Source: a virus
Lineage: Duplodnaviria; Caudoviricetes
Reading direction: 5' to 3' (one strand)
Length of the DNA: 60,276 nt
IMG/VR virus record: IMGVR_UViG_3300036859_000206
Coordinates: 1 to 60,276 of that record
Below, one piece after another: positions 8,922 to 31,409 of this stretch (its first letter is position 1; every line of letters starts with the position of its first letter). The notes below the pieces were generated by a model. It was not told where the DNA came from. It ran no database searches and saw only the letters and a list, made by a program, of their open reading frames with translations. A program made the position numbers and the translations under genes.

Positions 8922-9204
8922 GGCAGATTGGGTTGTTCGAATACGTGGACTGGCAGCCGGTGGGAGTCCGGCGAACCCTGAACGCGGTGTCCGAGTCATG
9001 CTGCAATACATCAACTCGCCGGCGCTAGAACAACAACTTCTCGCGCTCGCCAACGGCAAGCCAGGCGAACGTTACTGCATCGACGGATGCTGGTTTGAGG
9101 TCAATCCTGACGGCGAGACGTGTCGCATCATTGGGTCGCTAGGGTTTCTCTTACACGGCGAACCCGCTCCATCATCTCCGGACGATCCTCCACCGGAATG
9201 TTAG
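8911..9204 (+). CDS. Hypothetical protein (converges on and overlaps the giant gene)
   Basis: GGAGG RBS; 3' end overlaps 9128..14893. Confidence 0.45.
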   Translation: MRREADWVVRIRGLAAGGSPANPERGVRVMLQYINSPALEQQLLALANGKPGERYCIDGCWFEVNPDGETCRIIGSLGFLLHGEPAPSSPDDPPPEC

Positions 9205-12200
9205 GCAGCGCCGAGCGCACTGATCGCAGCAAGGCTGGTCCGAGCTTGTACTGCTTGCGCTCTTGCTCGCTGGCCATGTCCCACGCCTTGATCTTCTGGT
9301 TCAACGGAAGACGAGCAAAGCGGATCGCAGGAACATCTTGATGGGCCTCTGTCCGCAGGTTTTTCACCTGACGTGGCGACAATCCATTGAGGTCTGGAAC
9401 CTCTCCAGCCTTCACCTTCGCCAATTCTTCCTTGAAGCGGTCAGACCGCTCGGCCATCTCCGCGGTACGAGCGCCTTGCGGAAGGGTGTCGAAGTAGCGC
9501 TCAGCGACGTAATCCTGGAAGGCCGTGCGCGACACGTTAGCCGGCGCCGGCGTAATCCCAACGAACGGTGCGACCTTGGCGGCCAACCCTTCGCCAGCCT
9601 TGGCGTTCTTCGCCGCACCCTGCACTGAGTACGGAAGGAACGACTTCGCCATGTACGTGAGGAATTGCTGCACCTCGCGCGGAATTGGATCTTCCGGATT
9701 GAAAATCTGGTTCCCGTAGAAGTCCTTGTTCGACAGCATTTCCGACATCATGGAGAGCGTCGGGTGAAGTTTGTGCTTTAGCGTCTCCACCGGATGCCGC
9801 GAGAACTGCCACTCGTCCTTGACGTATGACGGGAAGGACACACGCTCAGGTGAGCCGTCAGGATTGGTTCGCCCGGTCTTGGGGAAGAAATAATCCTTTG
9901 GCTCCTCTGGGCCTTTGCCAGTGAGAAGCTGCTGTGTCATCGCGCCCATGATGGCCACGGTCGCGTTCAGCGTGATGAGATACGACAGCCGGTTCGACAT
10001 GCGCGCCATGCGCTCATTCGTGACTGTTCCTGCCTTGCCCAAAGGACCGAGATATTCCTCCGGTTTTGCGATACCTTTGACGTCGCTGAGTGAGCCGAAA
10101 ATCAGGCGCAGCGTACCAGCGTTCCAGCCGACCGACTGCACTGACGTATGCAGTGCATCGCGCACCGTCCGATGCCAGAACAGGTTGTCATACGTGAACT
10201 GCCCCAACCGATCGTCGACGTCGGCATTCACCTTGGCGGCGATCTGTCGCATCACATCCGGATTCAGCGCATCGACCGTGCCAGCGTAGTCGCTGGCCTC
10301 CTCGCCGAGCTTCGGCGCGAGCCGTTCGAGTTCGAACTTTGCCAGCATCACGCGAGCCATCATCTTCTGCGCCGGGACCAACCGATGCGCGATCAGCCGC
10401 GTGGTCGACTCGATCAGCGCCGGGAGCGCCTTGCGCGTGGCTGCCGCGGTATCGCCCTGCCGGTACGCGCGGATCGCGGACGTGAAGTCGTTGTTGTACT
10501 CGGTCGACGACATGCGCGCTCTGGCGCCACCTTGGTCGAGGAAGTGGAAGATCGCCTGCATTTGCGGATCGCTGGCTTCCTCGCCGAGATACTGCTTGAG
10601 CAGCGACGCTCCCTTGCCCTTGCCGGCGATCGCCTGCAACGTGTGCGGGATCGCGAGCGCGGCGTCGGCGAACGACTTCATCGACGAGCCGAGATCACCC
10701 TTCGCGAGATAGCGCCAGCCGAGATCTAGGTTCGAGGCCGCCGAGTCGAGCGTGGTCATGCCCGCGTGGAACGCCGAGAGGCCGAGCCGCGCGCTCAGCA
10801 TCATGTTCTGGAACCAGCGGAACGAACGCCACGCCTGGAACTGCCCGAGGCCCTGCGCGAGATGGTTGTTCAGGTCGCGCGCCACGAGGTCCGGTGCGAG
10901 CACGCCGCGGAAGGTCGGATCGTTGACGCGCGAGTAGCCTTGAGGGATCCGCGCGTCGGGGTCGTCCTTGCGGAGCCAGCCGCGCTGCTCGAGCTCGTTG
11001 CGCCAGCGAAGTGAGGCGATCAGCTTCTCGCCGGACTGGTAGCGCGCCATGAAGGCGTCCATCGGGTTCAGCGACGCCGGTTCGAGCCCGGCTTTGATGC
11101 CTTCCTCGTAGTCCTCGTAGAACCTTTGCCTGGTGAACGCCTTGTCGCCAGCGAGGGGGCGCTTGCCGGCGATAGTCTCGAACACGGAGGCCACGCGCTC
11201 GACGGGATCCTTCCACAGCTGGTGCCAGTAGTTCTCGCGCAGGTTCGGCAGATACTTGCCGGCCGGATCCTGCTTGCGGAGATCGTCGTACTGACGGTCG
11301 AGCAAACGGTCGCCGAGATCGATCGCCTGACGAGATACTGGATCGGTGACGGCCTCCTTGCCGCCGCGCTGGAACGCGATGATGTCCTTGTAGGCCGCGA
11401 GCGCCAAACCCTGCCCTTCGAGCCCCTGCTTGCGGAGCTCGCCGACGCGCTTGTCCAGGTGGGTGCGGAAGTCGTCGACCGCAGAGTCCGCCTTCGCGAC
11501 GTTGCGCGCTTGCTCCGCCATCGTGGCCCGGCCGATACCGCGGCCAATCTCGCGCTGGCGCTCGGCGGTCACGGCATCGATCGCGGCAGCGGCCTGGCGC
11601 ACGTCGGCGACGCTGTACAGCGGGCCAACGCGATCCACGCCAGCCATGCTGAGCTTGCTGCCATCGGCGCGCTTCACATGCCGCGCCGCTCGAGCGACCA
11701 GCGCACGAGCCTCAGCCTGCGTGAACTGGATATCCAGCCCCAGCGTCTCGCGCGCGAACCGACGCATCGCGGCGACCACGCGATCGAGCACTGAGGCGTC
11801 GACACCGCGCTCGGCCATGACCGCGAGCGCCTCGCGCGCGAACAGCGCATCGTTGGCGCCGCGATAGCGCTCACTGGCTGAGGCTACGGCGTCGCGGATG
11901 GCGGGTGCGAGTCGTTCCGGGTGCGTGCGCCAGTCGGCGAGCTGGGTCTCGATCGCGGCCCAGGTCTTCTCGCCCGTGATCGCCTCGACCCCGAAGTGGC
12001 CGACTTGCTCGTGCGCGATGATGGACTGTGCGTGGCGCGCGTCGCGAATGTTGTCGCTGACGAGATAGACCTTGCCGTTGTCGAGGTCGGCGTAGCCAGC
12101 GGCGTCAGCGCGGTGCGGCGTGCCGTCAGGTAGCGCGGGAAGATCAGCGGCGGACTTGACGACGACGGTCTCGAGCGCGCCTGGGCGGGCGGCAGCGTAT

Positions 12201-14893
12201 TTCTCGATCGCTGCGTGGTGCTCTGGGGGGCGCTCGGCCTTTGGCTGTTCGCCGGCGTGGTACAGCGGCTCGCCCTTGGCCTTCGCGAACGCAGCCTGCA
12301 TCGCTGTCGGCGGCGGCTCCTCGACACCGGCTGCCTTGCCCTTCGCGATCTCGGTAGCAACGCGCTCGTCCTGCGCGGCTGACTCCAGCGCAGCGAACTG
12401 CTCCGGCGTCTTCGCGCGGTCGGCCTTCTCCTGCGCCGCGAGCTCGGCCTGCCGCTTCTCGAATGCAGCGTCGGTCTCGCCCTTCTTGCGGACGGCCGCG
12501 ACTTGCTTCTCGAAAACTTTGTTGGCGAGGCCGGTGATCTCGGGGTCGGCTGGCTTGGCCGGCGCCGGCGCGGTTACGCGTGCTTCTGGGGCTGCGGCTT
12601 GGACTGGACGGGACTCTGCTCGTCGTTCACCACTTCCAGCTTCGACCCCGGCGGCAGCGTTGCCGCCCAATCCCCGAACGTCATCCCCTGCATGTCCCGA
12701 ACGGGGGTTGACCCCGAGCTTGGCGGCTTTGTTGGCCTTGGCTGCGGCGTTGGCTTCGGGGACGTCTTTGCCGATTCCATAGCTCAGTCCTAGGTTGGTG
12801 ACTTGCTCCACGCGCCCATCGGGCAGCGTGACCTTGATCTTGAGGCTCCCAATTGCAGTTTGGAGCGCCTTTCCGGCCTTTTCAAGCTCAACCGGATCAG
12901 CGGCATTCGTAGCGTGAACGATCTCGTCGCCACCGATCCCGTAGACCTTGCCGGGCAGATGCTCAGCGGCCACCGACATGATGCGGTGGAGCACCTGATC
13001 GCCGCCCTCCTGCCCGAGTCGGTCGTTGACGTTCTTGAAGCGGTCCAAGTCCATGAACAGCATCGGCCCAGAGACATTGCCGCTCTCGACGTCCTTCTTC
13101 AGGCCGCGCAGGTTCCGCATACCATCGATCGGCTCGCCCATCACTTGATGGGTCGTGAGCGCGTTCTCGATGGCCGCTGCGTGGGCCTCCGGCGTGATCG
13201 GCTCTACCGGCCGCGCCCCGACCTCCGGCTGCGCTCCGGCCCGCTCACCGGCGCCTGCCCCGGCTTGCGCTGGCTGTTGTAGATCTTGGCGACCGACGTC
13301 TTGGCCTGCTTCGCTGGGACGCCCTTGGACTCCAGCTTGTCGCGGATTTTCTCGTACTTGATCGATGGCATTCGTGGTCTCCTTCGTGATGGACGGAGAT
13401 GCCGGCGGCTCATTCGCCGGCACCCCCTCGCCTGTGGTCAGCCCTTCAGCCCCACGTACGGGCGCTGGCTCCGTTTGGGCGGCGCCCTGCGTCCATTCGC
13501 CGGTGCCTTGGACTTTTTCGCCTTCACGGATCACCTCCTTCGGTTGTGCGGCGCCCGGCTCGCTGGCTGGCGTGACCTTGGCCGCGTTGGGATTACGCAA
13601 CACCCACTGATCCTTGCCGACGCTGACGACATCGTAGCCGGGGTTCTTCGCTGCGGCCTTGTTCGCGGCTTCGACGTTCCTGAACGGGTTTCCGTTCTTG
13701 TTCAGGATGTCGTTCTGGCTGGCGAGTAGTTCGTCGGCGTCGCGGCGGAGCGCTTCGTAGGAGTTCGGACCGCCAGGCTCAGCCTTCGCGTGGAGCGCTT
13801 CCTGCGTGACCGCCGCGACGTTCGCCGCCTCGGACATGGAGCCTGGAGTCGCCTCGGGATGTGGAACATTAGCCGGAGGTTTCACAGGCGCGGCGCGTCC
13901 GTGGAACAGTGAACCGAACCCGCCGGCGAGCCCGCCGAACGCCGCGCCGGCCGCTGCTGCGCCGCCAGATCCTTCACCGATGTCGCGCGTCTCGCCGGTC
14001 GCCCTGTTGGCCGCCGCGATCTCAGCTGCGTTCTGGCCGACGCCGACGCCAGCGTTCAGCGCCGCATCGGTCATGCCGCCGGCCAGCGCGCGCGGAAGGA
14101 GGCCCTCGCCGACGACCTTCGCCAGCGCCGATTGGACAGGGCGAGCGAATGGTAGGCCGAGAACCATACCGCCGACGCCGCCAGCGATCGACCCTGGAAC
14201 GAACGACCCCTCACCCGCTGCCTTGGCCACGGTCTCGCGAGCGGCGCCTGGAGAGGCTCCTGCTGCGATCTCGGCGGTATAGGCCGGAACCTTCTGGAGC
14301 TCGTCGAACGGCATCGAGCGGATTCGCTCGCCCTCGTGCTCGAGCGCGGCACCGCCGCCGGTTGCGGCCCCGACCGCGCCCATCGTCGCCAGCTGGGTCG
14401 GGACAGACGCGCCGCGCGTTAGGACTGCGGCGCCAATGAACGGGGCCGCGCCGCCAAGAATCTGAGCCGCCTGACCCGCCGCACCCCGCAACGACGGATC
14501 GCCGCGGAAGTGGAGCGACTCGCCCTTGAGGATGTTGCCCTCAACGCCGGTATCGGCAGTGGCCTGAGAGAACTCCGGGCTGACCGACTCGGCGAGTCCG
14601 GCACCCTTGGCCTGGAGCCAGTCTGCCGGCGTGTTCAGGAAGTTGCCGGCGCGCAGGCCCACCGCGGCGGCGATCGGTGCGGCGACCATCTTGGACGCTT
14701 CGCCGAAACCGCGCAGCGCCGAGCCGGTCCCGCTGACGAGCGCTGATCCGGCAGTCTTGGCTACGTCAGCGAGGTCGTCGGTCACGCCGCGTGGCTGGTC
14801 TGAGATGACGGGACCACTGTACGGCTCCAGCTTAGGCCGCGCGAACGTCGCGGTGTCCGGCACCACTTCACCGTCGTATGGCTTAAATTCCAT
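9128..14893 (-). CDS. Giant polyvalent putative ejection/internal virion protein (1921 aa) with GGDEF-like and HExxGH metallopeptidase-like domains
   Basis: Last gene of the virion operon; N-terminal Gly/Ala hydrophobic helices; FMDLDRFKNVNDRLGQEGGDQVL...YGIGGDEI...LSYGIG; IIAHEQVGHFGV. Confidence 0.85.
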   Translation of the reverse strand: MEFKPYDGEVVPDTATFARPKLEPYSGPVISDQPRGVTDDLADVAKTAGSALVSGTGSALRGFGEASKMVAAPIAAAVGLRAGNFLNTPADWLQAKGAGLAESVSPEFSQATADTGVEGNILKGESLHFRGDPSLRGAAGQAAQILGGAAPFIGAAVLTRGASVPTQLATMGAVGAATGGGAALEHEGERIRSMPFDELQKVPAYTAEIAAGASPGAARETVAKAAGEGSFVPGSIAGGVGGMVLGLPFARPVQSALAKVVGEGLLPRALAGGMTDAALNAGVGVGQNAAEIAAANRATGETRDIGEGSGGAAAAGAAFGGLAGGFGSLFHGRAAPVKPPANVPHPEATPGSMSEAANVAAVTQEALHAKAEPGGPNSYEALRRDADELLASQNDILNKNGNPFRNVEAANKAAAKNPGYDVVSVGKDQWVLRNPNAAKVTPASEPGAAQPKEVIREGEKVQGTGEWTQGAAQTEPAPVRGAEGLTTGEGVPANEPPASPSITKETTNAIDQVRENPRQAGVQGRPSEAGQDVGRQDLQQPAQAGAGAGERAGAQPEVGARPVEPITPEAHAAAIENALTTHQVMGEPIDGMRNLRGLKKDVESGNVSGPMLFMDLDRFKNVNDRLGQEGGDQVLHRIMSVAAEHLPGKVYGIGGDEIVHATNAADPVELEKAGKALQTAIGSLKIKVTLPDGRVEQVTNLGLSYGIGKDVPEANAAAKANKAAKLGVNPRSGHAGDDVRGLGGNAAAGVEAGSGERRAESRPVQAAAPEARVTAPAPAKPADPEITGLANKVFEKQVAAVRKKGETDAAFEKRQAELAAQEKADRAKTPEQFAALESAAQDERVATEIAKGKAAGVEEPPPTAMQAAFAKAKGEPLYHAGEQPKAERPPEHHAAIEKYAAARPGALETVVVKSAADLPALPDGTPHRADAAGYADLDNGKVYLVSDNIRDARHAQSIIAHEQVGHFGVEAITGEKTWAAIETQLADWRTHPERLAPAIRDAVASASERYRGANDALFAREALAVMAERGVDASVLDRVVAAMRRFARETLGLDIQFTQAEARALVARAARHVKRADGSKLSMAGVDRVGPLYSVADVRQAAAAIDAVTAERQREIGRGIGRATMAEQARNVAKADSAVDDFRTHLDKRVGELRKQGLEGQGLALAAYKDIIAFQRGGKEAVTDPVSRQAIDLGDRLLDRQYDDLRKQDPAGKYLPNLRENYWHQLWKDPVERVASVFETIAGKRPLAGDKAFTRQRFYEDYEEGIKAGLEPASLNPMDAFMARYQSGEKLIASLRWRNELEQRGWLRKDDPDARIPQGYSRVNDPTFRGVLAPDLVARDLNNHLAQGLGQFQAWRSFRWFQNMMLSARLGLSAFHAGMTTLDSAASNLDLGWRYLAKGDLGSSMKSFADAALAIPHTLQAIAGKGKGASLLKQYLGEEASDPQMQAIFHFLDQGGARARMSSTEYNNDFTSAIRAYRQGDTAAATRKALPALIESTTRLIAHRLVPAQKMMARVMLAKFELERLAPKLGEEASDYAGTVDALNPDVMRQIAAKVNADVDDRLGQFTYDNLFWHRTVRDALHTSVQSVGWNAGTLRLIFGSLSDVKGIAKPEEYLGPLGKAGTVTNERMARMSNRLSYLITLNATVAIMGAMTQQLLTGKGPEEPKDYFFPKTGRTNPDGSPERVSFPSYVKDEWQFSRHPVETLKHKLHPTLSMMSEMLSNKDFYGNQIFNPEDPIPREVQQFLTYMAKSFLPYSVQGAAKNAKAGEGLAAKVAPFVGITPAPANVSRTAFQDYVAERYFDTLPQGARTAEMAERSDRFKEELAKVKAGEVPDLNGLSPRQVKNLRTEAHQDVPAIRFARLPLNQKIKAWDMASEQERKQYKLGPALLRSVRSALPNIPVEDRPEMMERVRRVRETLATQ
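12574..12780 (-). CDS. Possible nested +1-frame ORF directly after the GGDEF domain
   Basis: Same alternative frame as the other two nested ORFs; protein-like MQGMTFGDWAATLPPGSKLEVV; weak RBS. Confidence 0.3.
   Translation of the reverse strand: MESAKTSPKPTPQPRPTKPPSSGSTPVRDMQGMTFGDWAATLPPGSKLEVVNDEQSPVQSKPQPQKHA
13204..13371 (-). CDS. Nested +1-frame gene (55 aa, MPSIKYEKIRDKLESKG...AKIYNS) inside the giant gene
   Basis: AAGGAG 7 nt upstream of ATG; near-uniform GC3 in this frame while the host frame reads like an off-frame translation. Confidence 0.65.
   Translation of the reverse strand: MPSIKYEKIRDKLESKGVPAKQAKTSVAKIYNSQRKPGQAPVSGPERSRRSGRGR
13438..13527 (-). CDS. Nested +1-frame basic micro-ORF (29 aa, MKAKKSKAPANGRRAPPKRSQRPYVGLKG)
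   Basis: GTG immediately after AAGGAGGTGATCC, the full complement of the 16S rRNA 3' end. Confidence 0.5.
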   Translation of the reverse strand: MKAKKSKAPANGRRAPPKRSQRPYVGLKG

Positions 14894-14896
14894 TGC

Positions 14897-16444
14897 TCAG
14901 CCGCCGACTACCTGCTTGCCGTTCTTGTCCTTGTAGACCGGCTTGCCGTCCGGCGTCGATCCCACGCGCGTATAGCCCTCTGGCACGCTCTTGCTGGCCG
15001 CAGCCTCTGCCAGACCGCTGAGCTGCCGCGCGAGCGCGTGTTCCTCCTCACTGGGTGCCTGCAACGGATCGTACTGGCCGAGCTTAAGTTTCTCCTGATA
15101 GATCTTCAGGAAGTTATTCTGCGACTCGGTGTTCTTGGTCGACTTGAGCGGCTGGCCCTTCTCGTCCTTGATGAGCGAGGTGGCCCCGCCGCGGAGGAAA
15201 TACTGGTTGCCCTCGGAGTCGGCGACGACCTGACCGCGGTTGCGCGCCTCTTGCTCCGCGAGCGAGGTCCGCTCGGCACGGTTGAGCGCGCCCTCGCTGA
15301 CGTCCACGCCGAGCCTCTCGCCCAGTCGGCTGGTATCGCCCGCCTGTCGCAGCTGCTCGCCGGTGAGCCCGAGGCGTCCGGCGAAATCCTGGGATCCCTG
15401 GTTGATATGTTCGTGCAGGAATTGTGCTGCTAGGGTCTTGCCCGTGCGCGTAGTGTCCTTGCGGAGTTCGGCGTAGATCGAACCGGCAGCGCTGCGCGGG
15501 TCCTGAATCTCTGACAGCCTCGAATCGCGCAGACGTGCGGCATTGGCGACATCGGCATTCGGGTCGTAGGTGGGACGCTGGAATGACGCCGCGCGCTCAG
15601 CCGGTACCCGATTTGCCGCCGCGGTGTATTCCGGACTACCCAGCGGAATGCCTGCCGCGCCGGACGCCGCAGCATCGGACGGCACATAGCTCACCGCGCC
15701 ATTGTTCTGAAGGGCAGCAATGTCTGACCCGCTCATGGTTTGCGGAATGCCGCCACGCGCGAAGTCGGAGAATACGCGTACGCCGTTGATGGTCTGGCCA
15801 TAGCCCAAGTCTCGGCCTGACACCGATGTCGCGTTCGCCGACGGAATGGCTGGAGCCGGAGCGCCGTAACCACCGCGCAGGTTGATCGGCGGGCCCGCAA
15901 ACTGGTCCGGCGCAACCGCTGGCTTTACCGGGCTTACAGGCGCTGGAGCGGCCGGCATTACGCCACCACCGCCTCCGCCGGACACGGCGCCTACAGCGGC
16001 GGGCGCAGCTCCGTTACCTCCTCCGCCGGACACTCCGAAAAGACCCCTAGCGACATCCGCCGCAGTACGTGCCACCATTTTCCCTGGAGCGCTGGCCAAA
16101 TCGTTCACGGCTCCGATGGACCGCCCCAGCAATGGGACGCTGGCTCGCACATCTGCGCCTAAGCGATAGGCCGGTGATCCAGTCGGCGATGCTCCCGCCG
16201 TTACCGGACCCGGTGCGTCGATAATCGTAGCTGGGCGCGCAAGCGATGCTGCTCGAGCTTCAGGCGATGACAAGCCACCAGGAGGGGCAGTCCGCTGGAA
16301 TTGCGGCATCGGGATGGCAGCGTCGGCGCCAATGGCGGTCGCTGGAATCCCCGATGCAACGCCACCGCGATAGTCGGGGCGAGAGAATTCGGCAAGCCGC
16401 CCGGCTGAACGGCGCCTGCGATCCTCATCGGTCATCGTCGCCAT
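14897..16444 (-). CDS. Putative ejection / DNA-pilot protein
   Basis: Ala/Gly/Pro-rich, 515 aa, located before the giant protein. Confidence 0.65.
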   Translation of the reverse strand: MATMTDEDRRRRSAGRLAEFSRPDYRGGVASGIPATAIGADAAIPMPQFQRTAPPGGLSSPEARAASLARPATIIDAPGPVTAGASPTGSPAYRLGADVRASVPLLGRSIGAVNDLASAPGKMVARTAADVARGLFGVSGGGGNGAAPAAVGAVSGGGGGGVMPAAPAPVSPVKPAVAPDQFAGPPINLRGGYGAPAPAIPSANATSVSGRDLGYGQTINGVRVFSDFARGGIPQTMSGSDIAALQNNGAVSYVPSDAAASGAAGIPLGSPEYTAAANRVPAERAASFQRPTYDPNADVANAARLRDSRLSEIQDPRSAAGSIYAELRKDTTRTGKTLAAQFLHEHINQGSQDFAGRLGLTGEQLRQAGDTSRLGERLGVDVSEGALNRAERTSLAEQEARNRGQVVADSEGNQYFLRGGATSLIKDEKGQPLKSTKNTESQNNFLKIYQEKLKLGQYDPLQAPSEEEHALARQLSGLAEAAASKSVPEGYTRVGSTPDGKPVYKDKNGKQVVGG

Positions 16445-18357
16445 TAGGACAACTCCCCTGTTAGCGTGTACTGAGTCTCGCAGCTCTGCTGGTCGCTTCG
16501 CGTCGATCCAACACTAGCAGATGCATGCATGGCGGACAACGCAGCCGCGGCGAGGTTTGAGCTTACCTGCGCCAGCGTCTCCTTGTCGCGCAAGAGCAGG
16601 TTGGCAATCTGGATCGCTTGCTGCACATTGATTTCAGCGGACTTGAGCGCCCCGTCTACCTTCGCGCGCTCTTTTTCGACCAAGAGCTGGAATTGACGGT
16701 TGTCCGTCTCGGCGCTGGCCTGGGCAATTTGGCCGTCAGCCACATAAAGCTGGGTTAGCCCCTGGAAGATCTGGACTTGTGCATTGACCCGATCACGCTC
16801 GGCTTGGATGTCGGCAATCAAGCGTTGGACTTTGCCGAGCCAGATGCGCAGCGCCTGGTCTTGCTCATCGATGAGGAGACGTTTTTGAGCGATCAACGAA
16901 GCGTTGGTTTCAGACCACGCGGCGACTCGCCCACGGAAGGCGTTGACGGCGGATTCGTAGATACGTGCCTTGATCTCCTCGATGGTCGCCTTGGCCTTGA
17001 ACCCTTCCCACTCGGCGACGTAAGCGCGAACGCGCTCGCCGTATGCCTCCACCTTGTACTTGTACCCTTGGAGGATCGTGGCGTTCGCCTCGGCCTCAAT
17101 CTTCCTCGCATTCACCCGTTCGCCGTAATACTCGATCAGCGCCTTCACGGCTTCGGTCTGAGCCTTGTAGCGTTCCACGAGGTCTTTGTTGATCTCACCG
17201 ATCAGCCGCTGCGCGTCAATCTGCGCTTTCAACACCTCGACCTTGGCGAGTTCACCACGGATACGGATTTCGTATACCTGTGCCTGCACTGCGAAAGCGC
17301 GATTCTGCGCATCGAACAGCGCGACACGCGCCTCGAAGATCCGGACGGAGACATCAAACGTGACCTTGGCCGCATCAAGCAACCGCTGTTGCCTGGAATT
17401 GAACAGCTGAATCAGCTGGCCTTCGAGACTGATCCCTTGCGTCACCGCGAACTTGACGTTCTCGATCGCGATCTTGCGCACTTCGATCAGGTTCTCGCGC
17501 AGGAGACTCGAACGCTTGTTCTGCCCGTCCTGCCGAATCGTGGCAAGGCGCTTGGCTAGGATGCCGCTTGGCTCGCTGAACCCGCGCGCGGCGTATTCCT
17601 CGGTGGTCTCGTCGAGTGCTCGGTTGATGCCCTCTTCCTCGCGCGCGGCGGCGCGGTCGTACAAGGCTTGCTCAATCGCTGCTGGCAACCCCGTCGTCCC
17701 GCCGATCATCTCCGTAATCTTTGACTGGAGCGTGGTCAGCATCGTCGTGGTGTATTCACCCTCCTGATAGTTGAACGTCTGCCCAGGCGCAGTGAAATCC
17801 ACGGTCGGTGCTACGGCCGTGAACGTCGGCAACGTGATCGTTGGGAAATCCGGCAGGGTGATCGGCAGGAAGATCGGTGATTCCGGCAGAACGACGTCCG
17901 GCTCATCTGGCATGATCGGCACACTGATGATCGGCGGATCGCCGGGGTCCGTGGCGGTCAGATTCCCAGGCTGACCGCTGATGTTGACCGATGGCACCGG
18001 AGGCAGGTTATCCGGAGGCGCTGGCCCGAAGTTCACTTGCCCAACCGGATTGAACGCCAAATCTCCTGGGTCGTTCAGATTTCCACTGTCGTAGTGGATT
18101 TTCGGCTCGTCAGGGCGATTCGGCGTATTGAATCCGCCCAAATCAGGATTGATGTCAAACGATGCGTTGAAGTTGAACGGCTGGATCGTGAAAGCCGATA
18201 GATCGGTGATCGCGGCCTGCGCCATTGCGAACATCGACGAGCCATACGTCTGGAATGTGCCCCATGCGTTGGCTGCCAGGATGACGGCCGGATCGCCGAT
18301 CAGATTAGGACAACTCGGTGCGGTAGCCACGGGATTCTCCTCAGAGCCTGCGCTCAA
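16444..18357 (-). CDS. Virion structural protein, Pro-rich N-terminus and long coiled coil
   Basis: Position in virion operon; long alpha-helical segment. Confidence 0.7.
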   Translation of the reverse strand: MSAGSEENPVATAPSCPNLIGDPAVILAANAWGTFQTYGSSMFAMAQAAITDLSAFTIQPFNFNASFDINPDLGGFNTPNRPDEPKIHYDSGNLNDPGDLAFNPVGQVNFGPAPPDNLPPVPSVNISGQPGNLTATDPGDPPIISVPIMPDEPDVVLPESPIFLPITLPDFPTITLPTFTAVAPTVDFTAPGQTFNYQEGEYTTTMLTTLQSKITEMIGGTTGLPAAIEQALYDRAAAREEEGINRALDETTEEYAARGFSEPSGILAKRLATIRQDGQNKRSSLLRENLIEVRKIAIENVKFAVTQGISLEGQLIQLFNSRQQRLLDAAKVTFDVSVRIFEARVALFDAQNRAFAVQAQVYEIRIRGELAKVEVLKAQIDAQRLIGEINKDLVERYKAQTEAVKALIEYYGERVNARKIEAEANATILQGYKYKVEAYGERVRAYVAEWEGFKAKATIEEIKARIYESAVNAFRGRVAAWSETNASLIAQKRLLIDEQDQALRIWLGKVQRLIADIQAERDRVNAQVQIFQGLTQLYVADGQIAQASAETDNRQFQLLVEKERAKVDGALKSAEINVQQAIQIANLLLRDKETLAQVSSNLAAAALSAMHASASVGSTRSDQQSCETQYTLTGELS

Positions 18358-28798: not shown

Positions 28799-28981
28799 TC
28801 ACGTTGTACCTCCAGAGAGGTTGGCGGTGGCGTCGCGATATTCGCGTACACGATCCGCGTAGTAACGAATCTTAGCGTCGTAGTCTGTATGCTGCGGCGG
28901 CTTCGGTTCAGGCAGAAACGGGAGCGCAAGGCCGCCCGTCGCGACGACCAACGCTAGCTCGAACACCTCTCGTCGGTTCAT
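28799..28981 (-). CDS. Small protein with twin-arginine-like N-terminus
   Basis: MNRREVF followed by a hydrophobic stretch; GGAGG RBS. Confidence 0.55.
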   Translation of the reverse strand: MNRREVFELALVVATGGLALPFLPEPKPPQHTDYDAKIRYYADRVREYRDATANLSGGTT

Positions 28982-31215
28982 GGCCCCTCCTCCGGCGGCT
29001 GCTGCGCCAGCGCTGGCGGCGAGTTGTACGTCTGCGGCGGCTGCGGGCGCGCGAACAGCATGTCGGCCGTGGGCGCCAGCGGAATCGCGTTGTGGATCGT
29101 GCCAGCGAGATTGAATGCGAGCTGCTTGGCGTCGAGCGTGTGCTCGTGCTCCTTGGCCAAGAACTCCGCCGCGCGCGCCTTCGCCAGATCAGCATCGGCC
29201 GCGAGCTTCGCGTCATGCAAATCCTTGGTCTTCTGCGCTTCGGCCTGCTGCGCCTGCTGCGCGGCCTGCTGCTGAGCGGCGGCCTGCGGATCGTTCTCGG
29301 CCGCAGCGCCGTTGAGGCGACGGATGCGCGCGATGAGCTCGTCCTTCTTCGGAAGGTCGGTCAGGTCGATCGCGAGATCGAGCAATTGGATCTGGACTTC
29401 CGGCGGCAACGTGCGGATGGTCTCGAGGAGCATCTCGGCCATCGCCATCCGCATCGTCTCGCGGTAGTCCTGCTGATCGACAACGAAATCGGCCTCGCTC
29501 TCGGTGACGTCGTTGACGAACGTGATCTGGCCGGTGTCAGGGTCGATCTGCGGCTTGTTGATCGAGAGGAATACGAGCTGGCCCTTTTCCGCGCCTTCGA
29601 TTCGAATCGTCATAGGGAGCGTGAGGTACTGCTCGGTGTTCGATAGCGTCTTCTGGCCCGAGAGCTTGATCGACAGCCGGTACAGGTCGAACACCTCTGC
29701 GGTGCCGACCGCGCCCTGCTGCTGCTTGGCGAGGATCGCGCGTCCGGAGATCGCGTTCGAGTTGAGCCCCTGGTTGTCGCGCGTAACCCCGGAACCTTCG
29801 TTGATGTGGATCTTCGCCTCGTTCATCAGCTGCACATGTGCGAGGCTGACGTCGAGGTTGTTCTCCCACATGATGCGCTTGTCTTTCAGCGCCCCGGTCG
29901 CGACCGGGATGATCCCGTTCGGCCGGTTGACCTGATCCTCGAAGACATCCTGATCGTCCTCGTCGACCGCGCCGTTCTCGACCCAGACCTTGTTCGCGGA
30001 GGCGGCTAGCAGCGCCTTCGAGCGGCGGACGTTGTACTCCTCCTGCGGATCGCGCAGGCCGCGCACGTAGCCATATGGCTGCCCGTCGCGATGACGACGG
30101 AACGCCCAGACCGGCGTGAACGGGAACCGCTTGTGCTTGTACGGCGACTTCTTCAGCGAGCAGAGAAATCCTGGGTGAAACACCGCCATCCACATCTGGT
30201 CGGCCACCGCGTCAATTAGCCCGATCTTATCGGTCTTGACCAGCGCGGCCAGCACCGGATCGCCCTCGACGTACGCGGTATGGTTGAGCTCCGTGTACTC
30301 CTCGGTCAGCGCCATGATCTTCTTGCTGGCGACCGGGCGGCGGAACCAGATTTCGCACAGGCGCACGCGGTAGCGCGAGCCGCGGCGCCACAGGCCAGAG
30401 CTCGAATATCGGATGATCGACGCGCTCTCATCGTTACCGCGGTTCGAACCCCAGAGCACGGACGGGATGTCCCAGCCGTCCTCGTCGCCAAACTCCCACT
30501 CGGGCTCGGTATAGCCGGCGGCAGCACGACGCAGTTCGTCGGCGCGCTCCGGGTACATCGCGATGGCGTATTCGAAGTCGACCCAGCGGTGGCGTACGAG
30601 GTACCGGCAGTCGGTGAGATCGTTGGCCCGCGAATACGGGTCCATGTGGATCTCTTTCCAGTCCTGGTGCCGATACCCGATCGGCAGATCCTCGCCATCG
30701 GTGCGCGCGTACTCCTCCAGCCAGCCGAGCCCAGAGATCACGGCATCCTTGAACGCCTGCGAGCGGTGCCAACCGGAGTTGGTGACGTCAGAGACGAATT
30801 TCATCAGGTCTGTCTTGATCTCCGCGAGCTTGGTGTCCTCCTCACCGCGCGGCAGGATGCGCCAGTCGATGCGCGTGCGCCGCTCCGTGCCGGTGATCCA
30901 GTCGACGACCGGGCGGATCAGGTTGAACACCAACGGGGCCTGCCCGCGCTCCATCAGGGTCGCGCGCTTCTCGGTGTCCCATTGGTCTGAATCGTAGAAG
31001 TCGTGGTCGATGTAGCGCTCGCGGCGGTTCATCGCTTCGAGATCGCGCGCCTCGCGCCACCACTCTTCGAGCCGGCGCAGGAGCTTGATGTTGTCTTCGC
31101 TGTCGAGGTTGATCCGCTTCGGTGCAGCGCGCAGGACTGGCAGCGGCGGTCCACCGATCCGGCCGCTCGACTCGCCGGCTCTCGTGGTGCGGATGTTGTC
31201 GAAGACGGCGGCCAC
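28978..31215 (-). CDS. Portal protein (P22-like)
   Basis: DFYDSDQW...RGQAPLVFNLI.P.VDWITGTE, FPFTPVW, PYGYVRGLRDPQ, ISGRAILAKQQQG; GTG start overlapping upstream TAG. Confidence 0.93.
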   Translation of the reverse strand: MAAVFDNIRTTRAGESSGRIGGPPLPVLRAAPKRINLDSEDNIKLLRRLEEWWREARDLEAMNRRERYIDHDFYDSDQWDTEKRATLMERGQAPLVFNLIRPVVDWITGTERRTRIDWRILPRGEEDTKLAEIKTDLMKFVSDVTNSGWHRSQAFKDAVISGLGWLEEYARTDGEDLPIGYRHQDWKEIHMDPYSRANDLTDCRYLVRHRWVDFEYAIAMYPERADELRRAAAGYTEPEWEFGDEDGWDIPSVLWGSNRGNDESASIIRYSSSGLWRRGSRYRVRLCEIWFRRPVASKKIMALTEEYTELNHTAYVEGDPVLAALVKTDKIGLIDAVADQMWMAVFHPGFLCSLKKSPYKHKRFPFTPVWAFRRHRDGQPYGYVRGLRDPQEEYNVRRSKALLAASANKVWVENGAVDEDDQDVFEDQVNRPNGIIPVATGALKDKRIMWENNLDVSLAHVQLMNEAKIHINEGSGVTRDNQGLNSNAISGRAILAKQQQGAVGTAEVFDLYRLSIKLSGQKTLSNTEQYLTLPMTIRIEGAEKGQLVFLSINKPQIDPDTGQITFVNDVTESEADFVVDQQDYRETMRMAMAEMLLETIRTLPPEVQIQLLDLAIDLTDLPKKDELIARIRRLNGAAAENDPQAAAQQQAAQQAQQAEAQKTKDLHDAKLAADADLAKARAAEFLAKEHEHTLDAKQLAFNLAGTIHNAIPLAPTADMLFARPQPPQTYNSPPALAQQPPEEGP

Positions 31216-31409
31216 TAGTCGGCAGCCTTGGCACGCTCGCGGCGGAGTGCCGCTGTCGACCGTTTGTTGCGGGCCGCCTTGAACTGCACGCGGCCCTTGT
31301 AGACGCGGAAATCCATGCTGTGCACGAGACCACAATCGCAGCACGCCATCTTGTAGCCACACTTCACCGGCTGCACCCACTCGCCTTCTGCTGGCCGTGT
31401 GTACCGCAT
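31215..31409 (-). CDS. Small Zn-binding phage protein (ACCDCGLVH)
   Basis: EWVQP...YKMACCDCGLVH.MDFR motif. Confidence 0.7.
   Translation of the reverse strand: MRYTRPAEGEWVQPVKCGYKMACCDCGLVHSMDFRVYKGRVQFKAARNKRSTAALRRERAKAAD

What the first reader, a model, noticed from the sequence alone, without database searches (positions are those of the whole stretch)
12574..13540. Small genes overprinted in the +1 frame on both sides of the GGDEF domain, one with a perfect 13-nt Shine-Dalgarno
Seen: within the giant ORF, AAGGAGGTGATCC (full complement of the 16S 3' end, 13528-13540) directly precedes a 29-aa basic ORF (13438-13527). AAGGAG precedes a 55-aa ORF MPSIKYEKIRDKLESKGVPAKQAKTSVAKIYNS... (13204-13371). 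A third ORF (12574-12780) follows the cyclase. All three use the same +1 frame. The 55-aa ORF has the phage's high-GC3 codon pattern, while the giant protein there reads like an off-frame translation (RQAGVQGRPSEAGQDVGRQD). Inference: the disordered linkers of the effector protein hide independently translated genes, possibly inhibitors or chaperones that keep the cyclase silent during late expression, or basic core proteins. This would be an effector plus nested-immunity arrangement that standard annotation misses.
Basis: partly seen in the sequence, partly recalled or inferred. Interest (0 to 1): 0.85.

Follow-up and report, generated by a model that had tools for sequence, protein, structure and literature searches.

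The report
Small gene nested in giant gene

Summary
Only one is more than chance. The 55-aa +1-frame ORF (13204-13371, minus strand) has an AAGGAG Shine-Dalgarno 7 nt before its ATG. It belongs to a family of 45-100 aa basic phage proteins (MPxKYExIRD...AKTxAAKIYN...RKPGQxPVTG): 31 significant hits among 1.84 billion proteins, all small and aligned from their own N-termini. In 80 viral loci the gene is free-standing among packaging and structural genes in most. In 21 loci (19 distinct) it lies inside a 733 to >3400-aa open frame, always +1 to the giant as here; so do 4 of 4 MAG-contig hits. Nested copies keep ATG or GTG, a stronger SD than free copies, and family-level conservation. They avoid T at their third codon position, which is the giant's first. 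The "off-frame-looking" giant sequence is the shadow of this gene. The window has no other copy. The cyclase-immunity idea is not supported: only 2 of 20 distinct nested hosts showed a GGDEF domain. The 29-aa ORF behind the perfect 13-nt SD and the 68-aa ORF have no homologues. The 29-aa ORF shows no +1 coding signal; the 68-aa ORF shows a modest one and lacks a Shine-Dalgarno.

The parts
9128..14893 (-). Giant host ORF, 1921 aa (P0001): virion or polyvalent-type protein. N-terminal region, linker, GGDEF domain, linker, HExxH-containing region, conserved C-terminal ~800 aa.
   Evidence: Homologues of 1458-3357 aa share the C-terminal 42% at 50-53% identity. The N-terminus is 33% identical over 312 aa to the giant of L047. 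Upstream synteny with L040: the 637/668-aa ORFs are both phrog_10969.
13204..13371 (-). Nested small gene, 55 aa plus stop, in the +1 frame of the giant (giant aa ~508-563): MPSIKYEKIRDKLESKGVPAKQAKTSVAKIYNSQRKPGQAPVSGPERSRRSGRGR.
   Evidence: 31 hits at E<=1e-3 in 1.84e9 proteins, all 47-101 aa and aligned from their N-termini. 77.1 bits against an HMM built from free-standing copies only. GC3 0.95. Codon log-odds favour +1. It is the only copy in the genome.
13379..13384 (-). Shine-Dalgarno AAGGAG of the nested gene, 7-nt spacer to ATG 13371.
   Evidence: A 6-nt match equals the strongest found before the 27 presumed gene starts of this phage, which have 0-6 nt. Nested copies elsewhere have 5 nt or more in 16 of 20.
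13199..13402 (-). 'Shadow' stretch of the giant protein (aa 498-565, ...TNAIDQVRENPRQAGVQGRPSEAGQDVGRQDLQQPAQAGAGAG...): the giant-frame reading of the nested gene. It lies in the stretch between the conserved N-terminal region and the GGDEF domain.
   Evidence: The same [ND]AxxVRSDxGQ...DLQ motif appears in all 20 nested giants. A profile of it finds P0001 and P0022 among the 19 giant homologues searched.
12785..13072 (-). GGDEF domain of the giant (Pfam match aa 608-703; aligns to P0006 over aa 587-724; motif GGDEI).
13528..13540 (-). AAGGAGGTGATCC, a perfect 13-nt complement of the 16S 3' end, in the giant frame reading K-E-V-I-R. Function unresolved.
13438..13527 (-). 29-aa GTG ORF (+1 frame) directly behind the 13-nt SD. 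Probably not a conserved gene.
   Evidence: No +1 coding signal. No match in 80 loci at E<=0.1. No comparable upstream ORF in the other nested loci.
12574..12780 (-). 68-aa ATG ORF (+1 frame) after the GGDEF domain. Probably chance.
   Evidence: Modest +1 codon signal at 12703-12673 only. No SD. No homologue. Atlas recognition low, no hit.

Best explanation
The 55-aa ORF at 13204-13371 (-) is a genuine gene, translated from its own Shine-Dalgarno and ATG. It is embedded in the +1 frame of the stretch that separates the N-terminal region from the GGDEF domain of a giant virion (polyvalent-type) protein gene.

It encodes a member of a widespread family of small basic two-helix proteins with a basic tail (distantly DUF7218-like). 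In most phages this gene stands free among packaging and structural genes.

Shown:
- family membership;
- a conserved start and SD;
- recurrent nesting in one fixed geometry;
- codon signatures of dual coding;
- a single copy in this genome.

Inferred:
- Both products are made from the late structural transcript.
- The giant tolerates the overlap because this stretch is a sequence-tolerant spacer. A G/C-rich third position in the small gene is the giant's first position, which keeps the giant frame free of stops.
- The small protein acts in virion assembly, packaging or as an internal or nucleic-acid-binding protein, not as a partner of the cyclase.

The 29-aa and 68-aa ORFs are most likely not conserved genes. 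The 13-nt SD is real but unexplained.
For: Family membership. phmmer of the 55 aa against 1.84e9 representatives gave 31 hits at E<=1e-3 (best 6.8e-8, 45-68% identity). All are 47-101 aa, and nearly all align from residue 3-5 of both proteins. The alignment has invariant A28, N32 and R35 and near-invariant M1, P2, Y6, R10, D11.

Recurrent nesting. 115 relatives were found in IMG/VR and 80 loci were kept. In 21 of 80 (19 distinct) the gene lies wholly inside a same-strand open frame of 733 to >3400 aa, always with the small gene +1 to the giant. The 4 of 4 hits in MAG contigs do the same, in frames of 1371-2513 aa.

Start signals. An SD match of 5 nt or more occurs in 16 of 20 nested copies. 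The same threshold is met by 10% of 1925 other ATGs inside the same giants (binomial 3e-13) and by 19 of 51 free copies (Fisher 0.0015).

Conservation. An HMM built from free copies only scores the nested copies at 50.6-93.9 bits, median 78. Free copies, which are in the model, have a median of 83.6.

Dual coding. T at the small gene's third position is 28/1106 in nested copies against 348/2622 in free copies (p 3e-28). The giant-type frame is open across the small CDS in 20/20 nested copies and 11/51 free copies. Third-position pairwise difference is 0.49 nested against 0.62 free, at equal locus GC. Window against L002: differences at small-frame positions 1/2/3 are 7/7/18 in 43 codons.

The host ORF is real on both sides. 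The N-terminus matches L047 and the C-terminus matches L006 and P0005-P0009, all in one frame.

Other points. There is only one copy in the complete 60-kb genome. The sequence is reproduced without differences or gaps over this region in contigs of a second soil run, which may not be independent. Free copies sit beside terminase, portal or tail genes: 4 of 4 loci, and 8 of 10 largest neighbours have structural or packaging hits.
Against: There is no direct evidence of translation: no RNA or ribosome data, and no RNA holder was listed. No cultured phage carries the family in tblastn searches, so no proteomics can be consulted.

The function is a guess. The AF2 model is only a helical hairpin with a disordered tail (pLDDT 76) and has no PDB fold match (0 hits at E<=0.001). 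Pfam, PHROGs and NCBIfam give nothing for the window's protein.

The tree of 46 columns cannot say whether nesting arose once or many times (16 changes against 17.5 in shuffles; starred branches force only 1).

My 'free-standing' label rests on a crude ORF picker, and 12-kb loci cut some giants short. Conservation of the nested copies was partly guaranteed by how they were found (tblastn with the family).

The 68-aa ORF does show a modest +1 codon signal that I cannot explain away.
Confidence: 0.8

Rival explanations
1. Untranslated relic. The small-gene sequence was captured into the giant gene during domain shuffling and now serves only as spacer-coding DNA. Its ORF, ATG and SD persist by inertia.
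For: The giant frame reads through it in every nested case. The giants are mosaics in which segments move about. There are no expression data.
Against: 24 nested copies in very different giants all keep an intact ORF and an ATG or GTG start at the family's N-terminus. SD strength exceeds that of free copies. HMM scores equal those of free copies. Window against L002 changes are concentrated at small-frame third positions. The window has no other copy of a gene that is otherwise common in such phages.
Confidence: 0.07
2. Nested immunity or chaperone for the cyclase. The peptides flanking the GGDEF domain bind it and keep it silent during late expression.
For: In the window, in L040/L042 and in P0022 the small gene lies within ~25-130 aa of a GGDEF domain.
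Against: 51 of 71 distinct copies are free-standing in packaging or structural modules. 4 of 6 nested giants scanned have no Pfam domain at all. By BLASTP only L040/L042 share the window's GGDEF. GGDEF-bearing P0006 and P0011 lack the shadow. The two other flanking ORFs are unsupported.
Confidence: 0.04
3. Frame error or compensated frameshifts. The true giant protein reads the +1 frame here, and the giant frame is open only through paired indels, whether from assembly or from evolution.
For: The +1 frame has the coding signature and the giant frame looks like off-frame sequence.
Against: Family members are free-standing proteins that begin at this Met. None of 18 giant homologues contains the peptide in frame. 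The same geometry recurs in 23 other independent contigs. Contigs of two runs give the identical sequence with no indel at 11713-13911.
Confidence: 0.02
4. Programmed +1 frameshift. Ribosomes translating the giant shift into the small frame and make an N-terminal fragment ending in the small domain. The SD-like element acts as a stimulator.
For: An SD-like element lies upstream, as in some known frameshift sites (recalled: prfB, dnaX). The +1 geometry is constant.
Against: The 7-nt SD-to-ATG spacing and the conserved Met-Pro start are those of the free-standing genes. No slippery or stop-codon shift site is shared. Several in-frame stops of the +1 frame lie shortly upstream of the ATG.
Confidence: 0.03
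5. The 13-nt SD and its 29-aa ORF, and/or the 68-aa ORF, are further lineage-specific nested genes. Alternatively the 29-aa ORF is a leader that delivers ribosomes to the small gene 64 nt downstream of its stop.
For: The 13-mer is the strongest SD-like site in the genome, and a GTG follows at a workable distance from the GGAGG core. Other giants carry further SD-led +1 ORFs, and at least one second conserved family. There is a modest +1 codon signal at 12703-12673.
Against: The 29-aa ORF has no +1 codon signal. Neither ORF has a homologue. The other nested loci have no equivalent upstream ORF. The 68-aa ORF has no SD.
Confidence: 0.2

Closest known systems
Rz/Rz1 embedded two-component spanins of lambda-like phages (PMC6139136; search listing and abstract only, details recalled)
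   Same: A small gene with its own start lies wholly inside a longer same-strand phage gene, in the +1 frame, and both are thought to be made.
   Different: Here the host is a giant virion or polyvalent protein rather than a lysis protein. The small product is a soluble basic helical protein, not a lipoprotein. No functional pairing with the host protein is evident. The same small gene is more often free-standing, and in very different genomic neighbours.
Overprinted genes of small phages (phiX174 B, K and E; ssRNA-phage lysis genes, PMC7693330; listing and abstract only, phiX174 recalled)
   Same: Out-of-frame dual coding in a capsid-limited genome. The overlapping frame shows a skewed codon composition.
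   Different: Those genes are thought to arise de novo within the host gene. Here a pre-existing, conserved gene family has been placed inside unrelated host genes, probably repeatedly or by module shuffling.
Pfam DUF7218 (PF23855)
   Same: A small protein with an N-terminal helical hairpin and a ...AAxIxN-type motif. 7 of 32 family members give weak hits (best E 1.5e-4). A viral DUF7218 cluster appears at rank 25 in the Atlas (score 0.83).
   Different: The window's protein gives no hit at E<=0.1. The function of DUF7218 is unknown.
Polyvalent proteins of phages and conjugative elements (Iyer et al. 2017, PMC5512222; abstract and term-search passages read)
   Same: A giant multidomain protein with shuffled effector domains. 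GGDEF is reported there as an occasional domain. Homologues of the window's giant carry polyvalent-associated Pfam domains (PF18760, PF18823 and others).
   Different: That paper has no occurrence of 'overlapping' or 'frameshift', and its uses of 'nested' and 'embedded' concern other things. Out-of-frame genes inside polyvalent genes are not described there.

Membership tests
Unnamed family of small basic phage proteins (MPxKYExIRD...AKTxAAKIYN...RKPGQxPVTG) | Significant full-length sequence similarity to members | tested here: met
   31 hits at E<=1e-3 in 1.84e9 proteins, best 6.8e-8. 77.1 bits against an HMM of free-standing copies only.
Unnamed family of small basic phage proteins (MPxKYExIRD...AKTxAAKIYN...RKPGQxPVTG) | Protein begins Met-Pro at the family's N-terminus; total size about 45-100 aa with a basic tail | tested here: met
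   Alignment A1. Starts listed. 55 aa, tail RSRRSGRGR.
Unnamed family of small basic phage proteins (MPxKYExIRD...AKTxAAKIYN...RKPGQxPVTG) | Conserved columns A28, N32, R35 (invariant) and M1, P2, Y6, R10, D11, A23, K24, A27, G38 (at least 90%) | tested here: met
   The numbering is that of the window's protein, which carries all of them.
Pfam DUF7218 (PF23855) | Match to the Pfam model at or above its gathering score | tested here: not met
   No hit for the window's protein at E<=1 (69-aa form) or E<=0.1 (55-aa form). 7 of 32 relatives hit weakly, best E 1.5e-4.
Out-of-frame embedded gene (Rz1-in-Rz type) | Whole CDS lies in another frame of a longer same-strand ORF that is itself a real gene on both sides | tested here: met
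   The giant's N-terminus and C-terminus each have homologues in the same frame.
Out-of-frame embedded gene (Rz1-in-Rz type) | Own ribosome-binding site and start codon, conserved among relatives | tested here: met
   AAGGAG-7 nt-ATG. SD of 5 nt or more in 16 of 20 nested copies against a 10% background.
Out-of-frame embedded gene (Rz1-in-Rz type) | Both proteins are actually produced | not testable with these tools
   No RNA holder was listed. No cultured relative was found.
Out-of-frame embedded gene (Rz1-in-Rz type) | Embedded and host products act together | not tested
   No complex prediction was run. The distribution argues against an obligate link, since 51 of 71 distinct copies are free-standing.
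Polyvalent protein (Iyer et al. 2017) | Giant polypeptide combining several unrelated effector domains, in a phage or conjugative element | tested here: inconclusive
   Only GGDEF passes Pfam in the window's giant. Homologues carry PF18760, PF18823, PF18853, PF18763 and PF18819. A shared HExxH region was seen in the alignment to P0006.
GGDEF domain (PF00990) | Pfam match above the gathering score | tested here: met
   33 bits against 23.8, E 6.2e-8, profile positions 32-129 of 161. Motif GGDEI. Activity not testable.

The most novel reading that the evidence does not exclude
The spacer regions of giant polyvalent or ejection-type virion protein genes are a general, overlooked home for out-of-frame small genes. 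At least two conserved families ride in the +1 frame: the DUF7218-like family here, and a second ~80-aa family in L080/L047 that is better conserved in the nested frame than in the giant frame. Many further SD-led +1 ORFs exist. These genes move between free-standing and nested states, or travel with domain shuffling. On this reading the window's perfect 13-nt SD with its 29-aa ORF, and perhaps the 68-aa ORF, are further lineage-specific nested genes or a leader feeding ribosomes to the small gene.
Probability: 0.3. Interest if true: 0.85.

Novelty: new variant of a known kind. Interest (0 to 1): 0.7.

Why it matters
Gene callers do not report a gene inside a longer ORF, so this family is invisible in every genome where it is nested. 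In the window it is the phage's only copy.

The case differs from textbook overprinting. Here an existing, conserved gene has been placed inside unrelated giant genes in one fixed frame geometry. That geometry has a simple physical reason: a G/C-rich third position in the small gene becomes the first position of the giant's codons, which keeps the giant frame free of stops.

If both products are made, three things follow:
- Parts of polyvalent proteins between their recognised domains can be dual-coding DNA.
- "Junk-like" G/A/E/R/Q-rich stretches in giant phage proteins can be used as a probe for hidden genes. The shadow motif found one in P0022 from its protein sequence alone.
- A small basic protein of the packaging and structural module becomes a defined target for functional work.

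Tried and rejected
Searches for close relatives of the giant gene.
- blastn against cultured phages: none.
- tblastn against cultured phages: two weak partial hits only.
- The search for related loci with P0001 in viral contigs and genome contigs: none.
- The search for related loci with P0006 in viral contigs: none.
So conservation of the 29-aa and 68-aa ORFs in a near relative could not be tested.

Searches with the three nested peptides.
- BLASTP of all three against 18 giant homologues: nothing significant. This rejects an in-frame origin.
- Pfam and PHROGs on the three peptides: nothing.
- P0003 by word-index search at near lengths: no candidate. Longer lengths were not searched for it.
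- Atlas on the 39-aa core of P0003: no usable hit.

Other checks that led nowhere.
- tblastn of the small protein and of P0033 against cultured phages: none, or one chance hit at E=3.
This is no prevalence estimate.
- Foldseek against PDB: no match.
- NCBIfam: none.
- Pfam on 10 genes directly downstream of free-standing copies, looking for DUF7219: none.
- RNA fold of 13340-13570: z = -0.77, not notable. A 13-bp local hairpin just upstream of the nested SD was not pursued.
- Promoter scan of 12300-15200: none.
- Tree of the family: unresolved.
- Apparent nesting in the other frame in L016/L018/L056: this turned out to be a short overlap with the 5' end of a conserved ~590-aa downstream gene, not nesting.
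- Sequencing runs: no RNA holder was listed, and X3 holds only a small share.

Literature. Searches, plus term look-up in PMC5512222, found no description of this nested gene or of DUF7218. Supplements are closed and were not consulted.

Not run: complex prediction (no binding claim is made), a second structure job, and the metagenome-contig scan.

Rows dropped before the counts:
- L020 and L025, which have no start codon within 18 nt of the match start.
- 8 loci identical to another over the small gene plus or minus 60 nt, among them L042 (= L040) and L065 (= L062).

Full report
WHAT THE WINDOW IS

The window is a complete 60,276-bp IMG/VR virus record with direct terminal repeats and 62.7% GC. 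It has a P22-type portal at 28978..31380.

The finding lies in a 1921-aa ORF, 9128..14893 on the minus strand. Its only Pfam domain is a GGDEF at aa 608-703 (E 6.2e-8).

Eighteen other giant proteins (1458-3357 aa) are homologous, mostly through the C-terminal 42% at 50-53% identity. They carry varied polyvalent-type domains in front. P0006 also has a GGDEF, 33% identical over aa 587-724.

The 637-aa ORF at 16444..18357, two genes upstream of the giant, is phrog_10969. So is the 668-aa ORF two genes upstream of the giant of locus L040. The giant of L015 hits a 'virion structural protein' PHROG. I therefore read the host as a giant virion or polyvalent-type protein.

CHECKING THE OBSERVATION

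All three ORFs, both SD motifs and the shared +1 frame are as described. The compositional claim is right and strong.
- Across the 55-aa ORF, the giant's first codon position (the nested third position) is 0.88-0.97 GC, and the giant's own third position is 0.47-0.82.
- A codon-usage log-odds scan, trained on 27 long ORFs of the phage, puts +1 above the giant frame at 13393-13303 (0.66 against -0.17 bits per codon at the peak).
- It does so more weakly at 12703-12673 (0.27 against -0.13).
- It does not do so over the 29-aa ORF.

THE 55-AA ORF IS A MEMBER OF A REAL FAMILY

phmmer against 1.84 billion representative proteins gave 31 hits at E<=1e-3. All are 47-101 aa, and nearly all align from residue 3-5 of both query and target. 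The alignment shows MPxKYExIRDxL..G...AKTxAAKIYNxxRKPGxxPVTG plus a basic tail.

Seven of 32 members touch Pfam DUF7218 weakly. The window's protein does not. PHROGs and NCBIfam are blank.

AlphaFold with this alignment gives two helices (4-16, 20-34) and a disordered tail, pLDDT 76. It has no PDB fold match. The Atlas 'recognition' value is that of a real family. Its nearest clusters are 45-48-aa hypothetical proteins, with a viral DUF7218 cluster at rank 25.

THE NESTING RECURS

A scan of IMG/VR with the family found 115 relatives, of which 80 loci were kept. In 21 of 80 the small ORF lies wholly inside a same-strand open frame of 733 to more than 3400 aa. The small gene is always +1 to the giant, exactly as in the window. 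Many of these giants are cut by the 12-kb locus.

After dropping 2 loci without a nearby start and 8 duplicates, there are 20 distinct nested copies, window included, and 51 free-standing ones. A narrower scan of GTDB genomes found 4 MAG contigs. In all 4 the gene is nested in 1371-2513-aa frames in the same geometry.

The host giants are mosaics that mostly share no similarity around the small gene. The small gene starts anywhere from giant residue 355 to 1395. The nearest small-gene relative (L002, 84% over 43 aa) sits in a giant that does not match the window's giant at all.

SIGNS THAT THE NESTED COPIES ARE LIVE GENES

- All 20 distinct nested copies start with ATG at the family's Met-Pro. 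One MAG copy (L084) uses GTG.
- 16 of 20 have a match of 5 nt or more to the SD consensus at -20..-4. This compares with 10% of 1925 other ATGs inside the same giants (binomial 3e-13) and 19 of 51 free copies (Fisher 0.0015).
- An HMM built from free copies alone scores the nested ones at 50.6-93.9 bits, median 78. Free copies, which are in the model, have a median of 83.6.
- Between the window and L002, differences fall 7/7/18 on small-frame positions 1/2/3. This is the pattern of selection on the small frame.
- The window holds no second copy (E 1.4e-22 for the nested one, 1.8 for the next best).

SIGNS THAT THE GIANT FRAME IS ALSO CONSTRAINED

- T at the small gene's third position is 2.5% in nested copies against 13.3% in free copies (p 3e-28).
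- G at that position is 51% against 37%. Third-position diversity is lower (0.49 against 0.62) at equal locus GC.
- Even in 36-49% GC phages, the nested gene's GC3 is 0.54-0.76 while the host's is 0.27-0.46.
- The giant-type frame is open across the small CDS in 20 of 20 nested copies but only 11 of 51 free copies.

The giant-frame reading of the gene is a recognisable 'shadow', [ND]AxxVRSDxGQ...G...DLQ. A profile of the shadow picks out P0022, a 3162-aa homologue, directly after its GGDEF domain, from protein sequence alone.

ARTEFACT AND FRAMESHIFT EXPLANATIONS FAIL

- No giant homologue carries the peptide in frame.
- The geometry recurs in independent contigs.
- Contigs of two soil-metagenome runs reproduce the region without a difference or gap. 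X1 covers the whole stretch. X2 records cover 11713-13911. Either run may be the source, so this is weak independence.

WHAT THE SMALL PROTEIN DOES IS NOT SHOWN

Free copies lie among packaging and structural genes. Terminase large subunit or portal was found in 4 of 4 loci examined. Of the largest neighbours in 10 further loci, 8 hit portal, adaptor, terminase or tail families. In L016/L018/L056 the gene directly precedes, and slightly overlaps, a conserved ~590-aa gene.

I infer a late-expressed, basic, possibly nucleic-acid-binding or virion-internal accessory protein. This is inference only.

A specific tie to the cyclase is unlikely. Among nested giants, only L040/L042 share the GGDEF, and GGDEF-bearing P0006 and P0011 lack the shadow.

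THE OTHER TWO ORFS

The 13-nt motif is the longest SD-like match in the genome. Presumed gene starts in this phage have only 0-6 nt. Against that:
- the 29-aa ORF behind it has no +1 coding signal;
- it has no homologue;
- it has no counterpart upstream of the other nested copies.

The 68-aa ORF has no SD and no homologue. Its only support is a modest codon signal over its last 40 codons. I rate both as probably not genes (about 0.2 for at least one being real). The 13-mer is left unexplained.

COMPARISON WITH WHAT IS KNOWN

The closest analogue in mechanism is the Rz1-in-Rz embedded spanin. The closest in general kind are the overprinted genes of small phages.

The difference is that here a pre-existing, conserved family is embedded, in one fixed geometry, in unrelated giant virion genes, and it alternates with a free-standing state. 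I found no description of this in the searchable literature.

TOOLS THAT WERE CLOSED

Supplements were not consulted.

Noticed in passing
L080:6466-6699 (+) and L047:6586-6834 (+): A second small gene family (~78-83 aa, MSAWNEQARRHWKEF... / MPKDLYSLAWLKTEARQHWKRH...) is nested in the +1 frame of two giants, about 480-590 nt downstream of the first nested gene. It is better conserved in the nested frame (42% over 93 aa, 64 bits) than in the giant frame (31% over 85 aa, 35 bits). The L047 copy hits Pfam DUF7219 weakly (E 1.3e-3, below cutoff).
   Followed up: partly
L039:10288-10530 (+), L040:11785-12084 (+), L021:5026-5196 (+), L006:6175-6312 (+): Further SD-led +1-frame ORFs of 46-100 aa lie inside giant ORFs. 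They have protein-like sequence and raised GC3, while the giant frame there looks like off-frame sequence. By eye the L039 and L040 ORFs share ...Y(E)..FGH..P. None has a Pfam hit.
   Followed up: partly
window 13393-13431 (-): A 13-bp G+C-rich hairpin (GGGGGUGCCGGCG ... CGCCGGCAUCUCC) lies between the stop of the 29-aa ORF and the SD of the nested gene. The 231-nt region as a whole is not unusually structured (z -0.77).
   Followed up: no
window 13020-13220: Contig depth in three soil metagenome runs spikes 4- to 20-fold over the GGDEF motif region. The extra contigs are many short partial matches at 85-90% identity with loose ends at 13022 and 13062. This looks like cross-mapping from GGDEF genes of other organisms, not a property of the phage.
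   Followed up: no
window, presumed starts of 27 long minus-strand ORFs: At the longest-ORF start, most genes of this phage have weak or no SD (0-6 nt match). The nested gene's AAGGAG equals the strongest of them. True starts were not curated.
   Followed up: no
window 16444-18357 (-) and L040:1558-3564 (+): The same order is seen in the window and in L040: a phrog_10969 protein, then a 426-515-aa protein, then the giant. This suggests a conserved three-gene module ending in the giant.
   Followed up: partly
L016:452-613, L018:2764-2946, L056:2791-2961 (+): A subfamily of the small gene (tails ...GHSERSFGDAVTRKRH) directly precedes, and overlaps by a few dozen nt, a ~590-aa gene that is 74-78% identical among the three loci. 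That gene was not annotated here.
   Followed up: partly
P0022 (3162-aa homologue of the giant): From protein sequence alone it carries the shadow motif of the nested gene (...PNAQTVRSNEGQ...GGGDLQQPA...) just after its GGDEF domain (hmmsearch E 2.7e-11). Its DNA could not be fetched.
   Followed up: partly
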